Below are positions 26,486 to 26,869 of a stretch of DNA of 64,000 bases, one piece after another; within the stretch, counting starts at the first letter, position 1; every line of letters starts with the position of its first letter. The DNA comes from a virus. Under the pieces are notes generated by a model. The model worked only from the letters and a program-made list of their open reading frames with translations, did no database searches and was not told the DNA's origin. Both the position numbers and the translations under genes were made by a program. The stretch lies in the IMG/VR virus record IMGVR_UViG_3300009162_000001; one strand, written 5' to 3'.

Positions 26486-26627
26486 TCCTCCGAGAACAAG
26501 GCGGCGAGACGATTCGTTTGGTGCTCTGCCAGTTGAGCTACAGCCCCATTGAAATGGGGCCGGCAGGACTCGAACCTGCAACCACCCTCTTAAAAGGAGA
26601 AGAAGTTCTCACCTAGGCACCGGAGGA
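26486..26627 (-). ncRNA. Y-RNA-like module B with permuted tRNA-like domain (YrlA-type)
   Basis: Closing helix TCCTCCG/CGGAGGA plus boxes. Interior on the minus strand: T-arm GCAGG-TTCGAGT-CCTGC, then a 7-bp acceptor-like stem CGGCCCC/GGGGCTG capped by an 8-nt loop, then D-arm GCTC-AACTGGCA-GAGC. Confidence 0.65.
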
Positions 26628-26651
26628 AATATGTAGTTGTTCCTTGCGGAG

Positions 26652-26723
26652 TCGGACACCGAGGAGTCGAACCTCGAACCCCCGCGTCCCAAACGCGGTG
26701 CTCTGCCATTGAGCCAGTATCCG
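26652..26723 (-). tRNA. tRNA-Pro (TGG)
   Basis: Acceptor CGGATAC/GTGTCCG, anticodon loop TT-TGG-GA, T-arm CGAGG-TTCGACT-CCTCG. Embedded between Y-like modules A and B. Confidence 0.85.
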
Positions 26724-26726
26724 TTA

Positions 26727-26869
26727 TGGTTCCTGAGAACAATGTCGATCGGACGTCTTTTAGATGCGCCTCACCAAACTGGGCTACGACCCCGATGATC
26801 GGGGCGGCAGGATTTGAACCTGCGTCCTCATCTTCCCTGAAGAAATCCCAATCTAGGCACCAGGAACCA
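26727..26869 (-). ncRNA. Y-RNA-like module A with permuted tRNA-like domain (YrlA-type)
   Basis: 9-bp closing helix TGGTTCCTG/CAGGAACCA plus boxes. Interior: T-arm GCAGG-TTCAAAT-CCTGC, capped acceptor-like stem CGCCCCG-ATCAT-CGGGGTC, D-arm-like GCC-CAGTTTGGTGA-GGC. Confidence 0.65.

What the first reader, a model, noticed from the sequence alone, without database searches (positions are those of the whole stretch)
26486..26869. Two modules contain a circularly permuted tRNA body with a capped acceptor stem (YrlA-type tRNA mimic)
Read on the minus strand, module B runs in this order.
- T-arm GCAGG-TTCGAGT-CCTGC.
- Then a 7-bp acceptor-like stem (CGGCCCC / GGGGCTG) closed by an 8-nt loop instead of free ends.
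- Then TA and a textbook D-arm, GCTC-AACTGGCA-GAGC.
- The 5' and 3' ends of the domain emerge where the anticodon stem would be and lead into the conserved-box helix.

Module A has the same order: GCAGG-TTCAAAT-CCTGC, then CGCCCCG-ATCAT-CGGGGTC, then a GG-containing D-arm.

The order T-arm, capped acceptor, D-arm is the permutation expected if a tRNA is opened at the anticodon and closed at the acceptor. That is the architecture reported for bacterial YrlA. A real tRNA-Pro (26652-26723) sits between the two mimics.
Basis: partly seen in the sequence, partly recalled or inferred. Interest (0 to 1): 0.85.

Follow-up and report, generated by a model that had tools for sequence, protein, structure and literature searches.

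The report
Phage Y RNAs that mimic tRNA
Two small RNA genes next to a phage copy of the Ro60 protein fold like a tRNA whose arms are in a rotated order; they are new members of the known YrlA class of Y RNAs, and one of them also keeps an anticodon-like arm.

Summary

- **What is there.** On the minus strand, module A (26728-26868) and module B (26486-26627) each run T arm, capped 7-bp acceptor-like stem, UA, D arm. A genuine tRNA-Pro(UGG) lies between them.
- **Context.** They are the first two of six tandem Y-RNA-like modules (26008-26868). All six share a terminal stem and the boxes GGUGCC and UGUUCUC. A TROVE/Ro60 (Rsr) gene lies 0.5-1.4 kb downstream on the same strand (23860-25476).
- **Family support.** Rfam YrlA matches both modules below its gathering score (41 and 22.5 bits against 69). 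A model built only from relatives' cores ranks B and A first in the window (71.5 and 53.6 bits). The tRNA Levitt pair covaries: A has G15:C48, B has A15:U48, and 40 of 45 related cores have one or the other.
- **Correction.** Module B keeps a 5-bp hairpin with the loop CUUUUAA. Rotating its natural sequence at nt 26/27 gives a perfect tRNA-Lys(UUU) cloverleaf. About half of 131 related cores share this hairpin. The two YrlA papers I read call that region a long variable loop.

Verdict: a new member of a known kind. Function is inferred: a Ro60 partner RNA carrying a tRNA-shaped head.

The parts
26915..26944 (-). Promoter-like site (TTTACA, 18-nt spacer, TG-TACAGT) about 45 nt upstream of module A
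   Evidence: Consensus scan only. One site was found against 0.8 expected, so this is weak.
26728..26868 (-). Module A, 141 nt: a Y-RNA-like module with a tRNA-like head opened in the anticodon arm
   Evidence: Terminal stem GGUUCCU/AGGAACC (26862-26868 / 26728-26734). Boxes GGUGCC (26856-26861) and UGUUCUC (26735-26741). Second helix GAUUGGG/UCCGAUC (26847-26853 / 26747-26753).
26762..26833 (-). tRNA-like head of module A: AC-like stem AGAUG/CAUCU, variable AGGAC, T arm, capped acceptor stem, UA, D arm, G26
   Evidence: Rfam YrlA 22.5 bits. R1 53.6 bits, E 1.6e-17. The un-permuted sequence is called a tRNA by ARAGORN with only a synthetic 7-nt loop added. Levitt pair is G15:C48.
26652..26723 (-). 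Genuine tRNA-Pro(UGG), starting 4 nt (AUAA) after the 3' end of module A; no CCA is encoded
   Evidence: ARAGORN; Rfam tRNA 60.4 bits; spacer read.
26486..26627 (-). Module B, 142 nt: a Y-RNA-like module carrying a complete, permuted tRNA-like body
   Evidence: Terminal stem UCCUCC/GGAGGA (26622-26627 / 26486-26491). Boxes GGUGCC (26616-26621) and UGUUCUC (26492-26498). Second helix GGUGAGA/UCUCGCC (26607-26613 / 26503-26509).
26585..26601 (-). Anticodon-arm-like hairpin of module B, UUCUC-CUUUUAA-GAGGG, followed by the variable loop UGGUU (26580-26584)
   Evidence: Rotating the natural sequence at nt 26/27 gives a 73-nt cloverleaf that ARAGORN calls tRNA-Lys(UUU). The same kind of hairpin is in 61 of 131 related cores, against 3.9 +/- 1.9 in shuffles, with an anticodon-loop signature.
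26523..26579 (-). Module B core: T arm (26563-26579), capped 7-bp acceptor-like stem (26541-26562), UA (26539-26540), D arm (26523-26538)
   Evidence: Rfam YrlA 41 bits, E 3.4e-7, model positions 1-114. R1 71.5 bits, E 4.6e-24. Levitt pair is A15:U48.
26334..26474 (-). Module C, 141 nt: same terminal stem and boxes, with a different, non-tRNA-like head
   Evidence: Fold z-score -3.8.
26189..26314 (-). Module D, 126 nt: same boxes, non-tRNA-like head
26099..26166 (-). Module E, 68 nt: minimal module (boxes, second helix, small loop)
26008..26085 (-). Module F, 78 nt: minimal module, the last one before the coding genes
25573..25965 (-). 130-aa ORF between the array and rsr, function unknown
   Evidence: phrog_1342, E 6e-15; no Pfam hit.
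23860..25476 (-). rsr: the phage Ro60 ortholog, the presumed protein partner of the six modules
   Evidence: Pfam TROVE E 1.5e-21. PDB 9KOP/9L5Y (Thermus phage phiLo Ro60) E 6e-29. phrog_850 RNA-binding protein E 1.8e-44. About 50% identical to actinobacterial Rsr.

Best explanation
Modules A and B are YrlA-type Y RNAs. They are small non-coding RNAs that partner the phage's own Ro60 (Rsr) protein.

Anatomy, shown by sequence and comparison:
- The 5' and 3' ends of each module pair into a terminal stem.
- Next comes a conserved bulged internal helix made of 5' GGUGCC and 3' UGUUCUC. By position it corresponds to the Ro60-binding helix of Y RNAs.
- A second helix follows, and then the head.
- The head is a tRNA body with its arms in rotated order and its acceptor stem closed by a loop. 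It can adopt the tRNA L-shape, but it has no free CCA end.
- Module A is opened in the anticodon arm. Module B keeps an anticodon-like stem-loop (CUUUUAA) and is opened at nt 26/27.

How it probably works, inferred from M. smegmatis, Salmonella, D. radiodurans and Thermus phage phiLo:
- The six modules and tRNA-Pro are transcribed as one precursor from a promoter just upstream. The transcript may run on into the 130-aa ORF and rsr.
- tRNA-processing enzymes cut the precursor. RNase P cleavage at the 5' end of tRNA-Pro would leave module A with a 4-nt tail.
- Other cuts would fall in the ACAACUA linkers between modules.
- Each module then binds one Rsr ring through the box helix.
- The tRNA-shaped heads of A and B tether Rsr to a tRNA-binding factor, or gate access to it. 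Host PNPase may be part of the same complex. The result would be a phage-controlled RNA quality-control particle sitting inside the phage's tRNA island.
- Both modules have the 7-bp acceptor stem that makes M. smegmatis YrlA an RNase P substrate. Module B also has U at -1, G at +1 and an A at the discriminator position. Cleavage and CCA addition are therefore possible but untested.
For: - The arm order and each arm are aligned by Rfam YrlA.
- Model R1, built without window sequences, ranks B and A first in the window.
- The un-permuted sequences are called tRNAs by ARAGORN.
- Tertiary signatures that my structural filter did not select for: the Levitt pair is G:C or A:U in 40 of 45 related cores against 46% in shuffles (0 of 5000 shuffles reach it), and U8:A14 is present in 43 of 45.
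- On alignment A1, 90% of cells pair and the covariation score is 0.738 against 0.218 in shuffles. The T, acceptor and D stems were required by my filter, so for those three helices only the diversity of pair types is informative.
- The Ro60 gene is on the same strand 0.5-1.4 kb downstream.
- All nine GenBank actinophage Ro loci examined carry sub-threshold YrlA hits beside the Ro gene.
- Of 80 actinobacterial rsr loci, most carry one to four tandem R1 hits just upstream of rsr on the same strand.
- The six window modules have six different but self-complementary terminal stems flanking identical boxes.
- Streptosporangium canum rsr-linked modules have positionally matching boxes (CCCGGUGCGAAGG ... 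UUGAYCUCGGG) and an ACAACUUCAG linker.
- Published precedent. M. smegmatis YrlA is about 147 nt, lies upstream of rsr, is processed from one precursor with YrlB, has a 7-bp acceptor stem, and is cleaved by RNase P and given CCA (PMC4201824). The Salmonella YrlA head has the tRNA fold in a crystal structure (10.1101/312249). Phage phiLo Ro60 binds two upstream Y-like RNAs and forms a complex with host PNPase (PMC12135203).
Against: - There are no expression, binding or processing data for this phage.
- Both modules fall below Rfam's YrlA gathering score (41 and 22.5 bits against 69). The same is true of all 20 actinobacterial rsr loci tested, so this threshold does not discriminate here.
- The exact GNCGAAN0-1G motif proposed for Rsr recognition is absent from all six modules.
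- Minimum-free-energy folds do not recover the full cloverleaf-like head. The best structures containing it lie 2-6 kcal/mol above the MFE.
- The promoter is only a consensus match.
- No close relative of this phage was found, so orthologous covariation of A and B themselves could not be tested.
Confidence: 0.88

Rival explanations
1. The tRNA-like elements serve only as processing signals. They would be RNase P/RNase Z recognition sites that cut a long transcript into pieces, as mascRNA does for MALAT1, and would have no role as Ro60 partners.
For: - Seven-bp acceptor-like stems in both modules; module B has U at -1, G at +1 and A at the discriminator position.
- A genuine tRNA sits 4 nt after module A.
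- Modules also abut tRNAs in phages Atuin and GiJojo.
- M. smegmatis YrlA is cut by RNase P (PMC4201824).
Against: - Across 41 related cores, position +1 is G in only 13 and position -1 is U in only 16, so there is no family-wide RNase P signature.
- Modules C-F have the same boxes and stems but no tRNA-like element.
- Linkage to Ro60 is seen in phages and bacteria alike.
- Processing and Ro60 binding do not exclude each other.
Confidence: 0.05
2. They are decayed remnants of tandem tRNA genes inside the phage tRNA island: the T arm of one tRNA followed by the D arm of the next, with no function of their own.
For: - Dimeric tRNAs are the known false positive for YrlA models. One such junction in this window scores 43 bits with R1.
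- ARAGORN calls a 67-nt 'tRNA-Lys' inside module B.
- The window carries 15 genuine tRNAs.
Against: - The two acceptor strands pair with each other across loops of 5 and 8 nt.
- Rfam tRNA finds nothing at A or B even at E = 10.
- Both elements are framed by the same conserved boxes and by complementary terminal stems.
- The same architecture recurs beside rsr in dozens of phage and bacterial loci, with covariation.
Confidence: 0.03
3. They are decoding RNAs in disguise: either a permuted (two-piece) tmRNA, or permuted tRNA genes that are processed into a normal tRNA that can be charged with an amino acid.
For: - Weak Rfam hits to cyano_tmRNA (22.5 bits) and tmRNA_permuted (about 20 bits), which share the order T arm then acceptor stem.
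- Module B rotated at nt 26/27 is a perfect tRNA-Lys(UUU) cloverleaf.
Against: - The tmRNA scores are far below the gathering scores of 47-70.
- ARAGORN finds no tmRNA.
- Neither module has G3:U70.
- I found no tag reading frame or pseudoknots, though I did not search for them systematically.
- Module A has no anticodon loop at all.
- I know of no bacterial machinery that re-joins a tRNA at nt 26/27 (my own knowledge, not tested).
Confidence: 0.02

Closest known systems
Mycobacterium smegmatis YrlA (Chen et al. 2014, PMC4201824)
   Same: - From an actinobacterial lineage.
- About 147 nt, against 141-142 nt here.
- Encoded upstream of rsr on the same strand, together with a second Y RNA, and made from one precursor.
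- Arm order is T arm, closed acceptor stem, D arm.
- The acceptor stem is 7 bp.
   Different: - Here the RNAs are phage-encoded.
- There are six modules rather than two, with a genuine tRNA inside the array.
- RNase P cleavage, CCA addition and Rsr binding are shown for M. smegmatis and only inferred here.
Salmonella Typhimurium YrlA (Rfam RF02553; crystal structure 6CU1, preprint 10.1101/312249)
   Same: - A tRNA-like head with a closed acceptor stem, UA at positions 8-9, a pyrimidine at 48, the Levitt pair, and conserved D and T loops.
- The head is joined to an Rsr-binding stem formed by the two ends of the RNA.
   Different: - The Salmonella acceptor stem is 6 bp and is not cut by RNase P.
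- It has no anticodon loop, whereas module B has an anticodon-like hairpin.
- The gene lies 3' of rsr in the rsr-yrlBA-rtcBA operon.
- It carries the GNCGAA motif, which is absent here.
- The window modules score only 41 and 22.5 bits on the Rfam model.
Phage-encoded Y-like RNAs: YrlA hits in 22 phages, including mycobacteriophage ET08 (PMC4201824), and Yrl1/Yrl2 of Thermus phage phiLo (PMC12135203)
   Same: - Y-like RNAs encoded just upstream of a phage Ro60 gene.
- The phiLo Ro60 is the closest solved structure to the window protein.
   Different: - As described in the paper, phiLo Yrl1 and Yrl2 are stem-bulge-stem RNAs with a CGAA motif. That paper never uses the words 'tRNA-like' or 'YrlA'.
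- In the papers I could read, I did not find a description of arrays of three to nine modules mixed with tRNAs.
Metazoan and Deinococcus Y RNAs (Rfam Y_RNA RF00019; D. radiodurans Yrn1)
   Same: - The ends pair into a stem that carries a conserved bulged helix.
- From my memory of human hY1 (5' CUGGUCCGAAGGUA, 3' CUUGACUAG), the window boxes (5' CUGGUGCCUAGGUA, 3' CUUGUUCUCAG) look alike on both strands.
   Different: - No Rfam Y_RNA match, even at E = 10.
- The head domains differ.
- The Yrn1 tRNA-like part has the opposite arm orientation (PMC4201824).
Two-piece (permuted) tmRNA and other tRNA mimics, such as mascRNA
   Same: - A permuted order with the T arm before the acceptor strands.
- A tRNA-like shape recognised by tRNA enzymes.
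   Different: - No tag frame, no G3:U70 and no free CCA end.
- Linked to Ro60 rather than to SmpB or translation.

Membership tests
YrlA-type Y RNA (Chen 2014; Rfam RF02553) | Arm order: T stem-loop, then closed acceptor-like stem-loop, then UA, then D stem-loop | tested here: met
   Read directly in the sequence. Aligned arm for arm by the Rfam YrlA model and by model R1, for both A and B.
YrlA-type Y RNA (Chen 2014; Rfam RF02553) | Nucleotides that hold the tRNA L-shape: the UUCRA T loop, A14 and G18G19 in the D loop, U8-A9, a pyrimidine at 48, and the Levitt pair 15:48 | tested here: met
   All are present in A (G15:C48) and B (A15:U48). In relatives the Levitt pair is G:C or A:U in 40 of 45 cores, a level reached by 0 of 5000 shuffles.
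YrlA-type Y RNA (Chen 2014; Rfam RF02553) | The 5' and 3' ends pair into a stem that carries the Rsr-binding site | tested here: inconclusive
   The stems and the conserved bulged box helix are present in all six modules. Binding to Rsr cannot be tested with these tools.
YrlA-type Y RNA (Chen 2014; Rfam RF02553) | GNCGAAN0-1G motif near the 5' end | tested here: not met
   None of the six modules has it. The element at the matching position is YGGUGCC-N-AG. In Streptosporangium canum the matching element is CCCGGUGCGAAGG in one module and CCCGGUGCGCAGG in the other, so CGAA varies even there.
YrlA-type Y RNA (Chen 2014; Rfam RF02553) | Encoded within 4 kb of a Ro60/TROVE gene, on the same strand | tested here: met
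   rsr is at 23860-25476 on the minus strand and the array is at 26008-26868 on the minus strand.
YrlA-type Y RNA (Chen 2014; Rfam RF02553) | Reaches Rfam's gathering score of 69 bits | tested here: not met
   B scores 41 bits and A 22.5 bits. None of 20 actinobacterial rsr loci reaches the score either, although they carry strong R1 hits. The threshold is therefore not informative for this lineage.
YrlA-type Y RNA (Chen 2014; Rfam RF02553) | No anticodon loop; the anticodon-stem position continues into the Rsr-binding stem (as in the Salmonella structure) | tested here: inconclusive
   Met by A, which has the 5-bp stem AGAUG/CAUCU. Probably not met by B, which has a canonical anticodon-like hairpin and only 2-3 bp of the alternative stem.
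YrlA-type Y RNA (Chen 2014; Rfam RF02553) | Carries tRNA-type modifications (pseudouridine 55, dihydrouridine) and is bound by Rsr in vivo | not testable with these tools
   Needs RNA from infected cells.
Canonical tRNA (Rfam RF00005) | Cloverleaf in linear order with free acceptor ends | tested here: not met
   No tRNA-model hit at A or B, even at E = 10. ARAGORN calls them tRNAs only after rotation. Its native 'tRNA-Lys' at 26555-26621 is a 67-nt miscall inside module B.
Permuted (two-piece) tmRNA (Rfam RF04321, RF01851) | tRNA-like domain with G3:U70, a tag reading frame and pseudoknots; score above the gathering threshold | tested here: not met
   Scores of 20-22 bits against gathering scores of 47-70. 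ARAGORN finds no tmRNA. Position 3:70 is G-C in both modules.
Permuted tRNA genes (algal and archaeal type) | 3' half encoded before the 5' half, then processed through a circular intermediate into a normal tRNA that can be charged | not tested
   Only the gene order resembles this. The breakpoint flanks here are the Ro-box helix. I did not look for a bulge-helix-bulge motif, and such processing is not known in bacteria (my own knowledge).
Metazoan/Deinococcus Y RNA (Rfam RF00019) | Match to the Y_RNA covariance model | tested here: not met
   No match at E <= 10 in 25600-27400. The likeness of the boxes to human hY1 rests on my memory only.

The most novel reading that the evidence does not exclude
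Module B, and about half of the rsr-linked tRNA-like modules of actinobacteria and their phages, may form a distinct subclass of YrlA.

- These modules would be complete tRNA mimics, permuted at nt 26/27.
- Their so-called long variable loop would in fact be a working anticodon stem-loop. In module B it reads 'Lys-UUU'.
- The Ro60 particle would then display an anticodon loop. That loop could act as bait, decoy or sensor for anticodon nucleases, or for enzymes that modify the anticodon loop.
- In a phage that carries its own tRNA set, this would be a counter-defence or tRNA-surveillance device.
Probability: 0.2. Interest if true: 0.7.

Novelty: new member of a known kind. Interest (0 to 1): 0.4.

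Why it matters
- It adds an uncharacterised actinobacteriophage to the Ro60/Y RNA systems. No DNA match was found in 50,697 phage records.
- In this lineage Y RNAs come as tandem arrays: six modules here and two to nine in relatives. The arrays are interleaved with tRNA genes and are probably cut up by tRNA-processing enzymes.
- Genome annotators should know that ARAGORN and deposited GenBank records label pieces of these modules as tRNAs.
- The anticodon-like hairpin gives the still unknown effector of YrlA RNAs a concrete, testable lead. The effector may read an anticodon loop, not only the tRNA elbow.

Tried and rejected
- **Close relatives by DNA.** blastn of the array found only a tRNA-sized hit to Mycobacterium phage Phabba. 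Megablast of 24 kb of the window against the phage collection found nothing.
- **Pattern scans of IMG/VR.** Scans for the window's own boxes returned only chance matches. The single locus with two matches, L207, is a repeat inside a protein-coding region, probably a tail tape-measure gene (my reading of the sequence), and has no R1 hit. No orthologs of A or B were found.
- **Which tRNA module B came from.** The best matches of the rotated sequence are a mix of Lys, Ala, Trp and Asn tRNAs, so this stays unresolved.
- **Class II tRNA reading of the extra hairpin.** This reading treats the hairpin as a long variable arm, with an anticodon stem next to the D arm formed by a strand 5' of the hairpin. 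Pairing for that stem is no better than with mismatched partners, so I did not adopt it.
- **Family-wide RNase P signature.** Not seen: G at +1 in 13 of 41 cores and U at -1 in 16 of 41.
- **ACAACUA linkers as promoters.** I considered this, but they do not fit a consistent -10 element. I kept them as candidate processing sites only.
- **Other R1 hits.** A weak hit at 49375-49437 is ordinary coding sequence.
- **Literature.** The 2020 Annual Review on bacterial Ro60 (PMC10870794) was not available. The supplementary tables of Chen 2014 are not held.
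Full report
**1. What is in the sequence**

Read on the minus strand, 26868 down to 26008 holds six tandem modules:

| Module | Coordinates | Length |
|---|---|---|
| A | 26728-26868 | 141 nt |
| B | 26486-26627 | 142 nt |
| C | 26334-26474 | 141 nt |
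| D | 26189-26314 | 126 nt |
| E | 26099-26166 | 68 nt |
| F | 26008-26085 | 78 nt |

Each module has the same frame:
- A terminal stem of 5-7 bp. Its sequence differs in every module, but the two strands are always complementary.
- An identical 5' box GGUGCC and an identical 3' box UGUUCUC. RNAfold pairs these into a short bulged helix.
- A second helix of 7-9 bp.
- A (U)ACUUC box.
- A variable head.

**2. Is it more than chance, and is it a permuted tRNA?**

- Rfam's YrlA model aligns B over its full length (41 bits, E 3.4e-7). It aligns the head of A at 22.5 bits (E 0.077). The tRNA model finds only tRNA-Pro in this region.
- I collected Ro60-linked loci through the window's Rsr protein: nine GenBank actinophages and thirty IMG/VR contigs.
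- A structural filter (T arm, capped stem, UA or UG, D arm) found 45 distinct cores beside Ro60 in these loci.
- From 39 of those cores, none from the window, I built alignment A1 and covariance model R1.
- R1 ranks B (71.5 bits, E 4.6e-24) and A (53.6 bits, E 1.6e-17) first in the whole window. The third hit is a tRNA-Lys/tRNA-His junction, the dimeric-tRNA artefact that Chen et al. warned about.
- After un-permuting, ARAGORN calls both sequences tRNAs.
- Features my filter did not select for behave like a tRNA:
  - The Levitt pair is G15:C48 in 22 cores and A15:U48 in 18, out of 45. Shuffles average 46%, and none of 5000 reaches the observed level.
  - U8:A14 is present in 43 of 45 cores.
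  - The window's A has G15:C48 and B has A15:U48.
- The related sequences share ancestry, so the shuffle figures overstate independence.

**3. Context**

- The 538-aa ORF at 23860-25476 on the minus strand is a Ro60 ortholog. Evidence: Pfam TROVE, PDB 9KOP/9L5Y from phage phiLo at E 6e-29, and phrog_850.
- It is about 50% identical to Rsr of Micromonospora, Actinomadura, Streptosporangium and related genera.
- The window is an actinophage-like genome. It has 15 tRNAs, a terminase and an SsgA homolog, and no DNA-level relative in the phage collection.
- A promoter-like site lies just upstream of module A.

**4. Relatives**

- Every one of the nine GenBank actinophage Ro loci has sub-threshold YrlA hits next to Ro.
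- Reading the sequences shows tandem modules with a shared UACUUC box: four in BRock, three in Frankenweenie, four in VanLee, and up to nine in IMG/VR locus L030.
- Most of the 80 actinobacterial rsr loci have one to four tandem R1 hits just upstream of rsr on the same strand.
- None of 20 such loci reaches Rfam's YrlA gathering score. The window's failure to reach it therefore says nothing about membership.
- Streptosporangium canum shows boxes and a linker at positions matching the window's: CCCGGUGCGAAGG ... GGUUACUUC ... UUGAYCUCGGG, with the linker ACAACUUCAG.
- In the window, four of the seven ACAACTA sites lie in the four inter-module linkers.

**5. A correction with some novelty**

- Module A fits 'opened in the anticodon arm'. 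G26.A44 and the 5-bp stem CAUCU/AGAUG lead out to the box helix.
- Module B has only 2-3 bp of such a stem.
- Instead B has a perfect hairpin, UUCUC-CUUUUAA-GAGGG (26585-26601), followed by UGGUU and the T arm.
- I joined B's natural 3' part (acceptor strand, UA, D arm, A26) to its natural 5' part (hairpin, variable loop, T arm, acceptor strand, A). This gives a 73-nt sequence that ARAGORN draws as a flawless tRNA-Lys(UUU) cloverleaf.
- Folding with the hairpin enforced gives -55.9 kcal/mol. Folding with the alternative stem enforced gives -54.0. The unconstrained minimum is -57.8.
- Across 131 cores from phages and bacteria, 61 (45 distinct) have a perfect 5-bp, 7-nt-loop hairpin abutting a 4-6-nt variable loop. 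Shuffles give 3.9 +/- 1.9.
- Among the 45 distinct hairpins, the loops read C32 in 35, U33 in 43, a purine at 37 in 40 and A38 in 43. Positions 34-36 are free, with 27 different triplets. That is the anticodon-loop consensus.
- The two YrlA papers I could read call this region the V region or a long variable loop of class II type.
- The anticodon stem that the class II reading needs is not supported above a mismatched-partner control.
- So the family seems to contain two head types, and the window has one of each.

**6. Mechanism**

Shown here:
- The anatomy of the modules.
- Their linkage to rsr.
- Conservation of the architecture in relatives.

Inferred from published systems (PMC4201824, 10.1101/312249, PMC12135203):
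- Transcription as one precursor.
- Cutting by tRNA-processing enzymes.
- Binding of Rsr to the box helix.
- Use of the tRNA-shaped head to recruit or gate a tRNA-binding partner, possibly together with host PNPase.

The acceptor-like stem is 7 bp in both modules (with a bulged U in A). Module B also has U at -1, G at +1 and A at the discriminator position. [quoted passage not shown] There is no family-wide RNase P signature.

**7. Verdict**

- The finding is real and correctly classified.
- It belongs to a family known since 2014, including in phages, so it is a new member of a known kind.
- The points of added interest are the six-module array with an embedded tRNA and the anticodon-like arm in module B.

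Noticed in passing
window 26008-26474 (minus strand): Four more Y-RNA-like modules (C, D, E, F) follow B. They have the same terminal-stem and box frame but no tRNA-like head. C and D carry other structured heads; E and F are minimal.
   Followed up: partly
window 26555-26621 (minus strand); L002 3269-3343; L005 2274-2347; L007 2245-2335; L004 3204-3275: ARAGORN calls a 67-nt 'tRNA-Lys(ttt)' inside module B. GenBank records annotate similar pieces of Y-like modules as tRNAs: GiJojo tRNA-Arg(cct), LuckySocke tRNA-Ser(gct), Frankenweenie 91-nt tRNA-Pro(tgg) and VanLee tRNA-Arg(tct). The Rfam tRNA model scores them at or below threshold, or not at all.
   Followed up: partly
window 26175-26181, 26318-26324, 26477-26483, 26634-26640 (minus strand); also 17333-17339: The heptamer ACAACUA sits in each of four inter-module linkers, which accounts for 4 of its 7 occurrences in 64 kb. 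A fifth lies just upstream of tRNA-Val. Similar linkers (ACAACUUCAG, AACUUCA) occur in Streptosporangium canum and in phages BRock and VanLee. It may be a processing site.
   Followed up: partly
L279-L358 (actinobacterial rsr loci), about 100-900 nt upstream of rsr: Cellular actinobacteria carry one to four tandem YrlA-type cores spaced about 150 nt apart. L316, L317 and L329 have four each. None of 20 loci tested reaches Rfam's YrlA gathering score, so the Rfam model under-detects this lineage.
   Followed up: partly
L001 5579-5742 (BRock); L005 4467-4699 (LuckySocke): Near-threshold matches to the manA RNA motif (49.7 and 47.8 bits against a gathering score of 55.2) lie between two tRNA-Lys genes, just downstream of the phage Ro60 gene.
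   Followed up: no
L003 5252-5830 (Arthrobacter phage Atuin): Y-like modules lie downstream of Ro60 and are interleaved with tRNAs. One module ends about 6 nt before tRNA-Thr. The last module has a T arm but no D arm, like the published M. smegmatis YrlB.
   Followed up: no
Related cores in L001-L039: Seven of 37 capped acceptor stems have G3:U70, the alanine identity pair. Five capping loops contain CCA right after the first loop nucleotide (for example ACCAU and ACCAACAU).
   Followed up: no
window 22912-23334 (minus strand): A phage-encoded SsgA-family protein (Pfam E 7e-21), a Streptomyces sporulation and cell-division factor, lies just downstream of rsr and tRNA-Glu. It hints at a sporulating actinomycete host.
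   Followed up: no
window 27172-27210 (minus strand): A strong terminator-like hairpin (17 pairs followed by a T-rich tail) precedes the small HTH/MerR-like gene at 26949-27152, which sits directly upstream of the array's promoter-like site.
   Followed up: no
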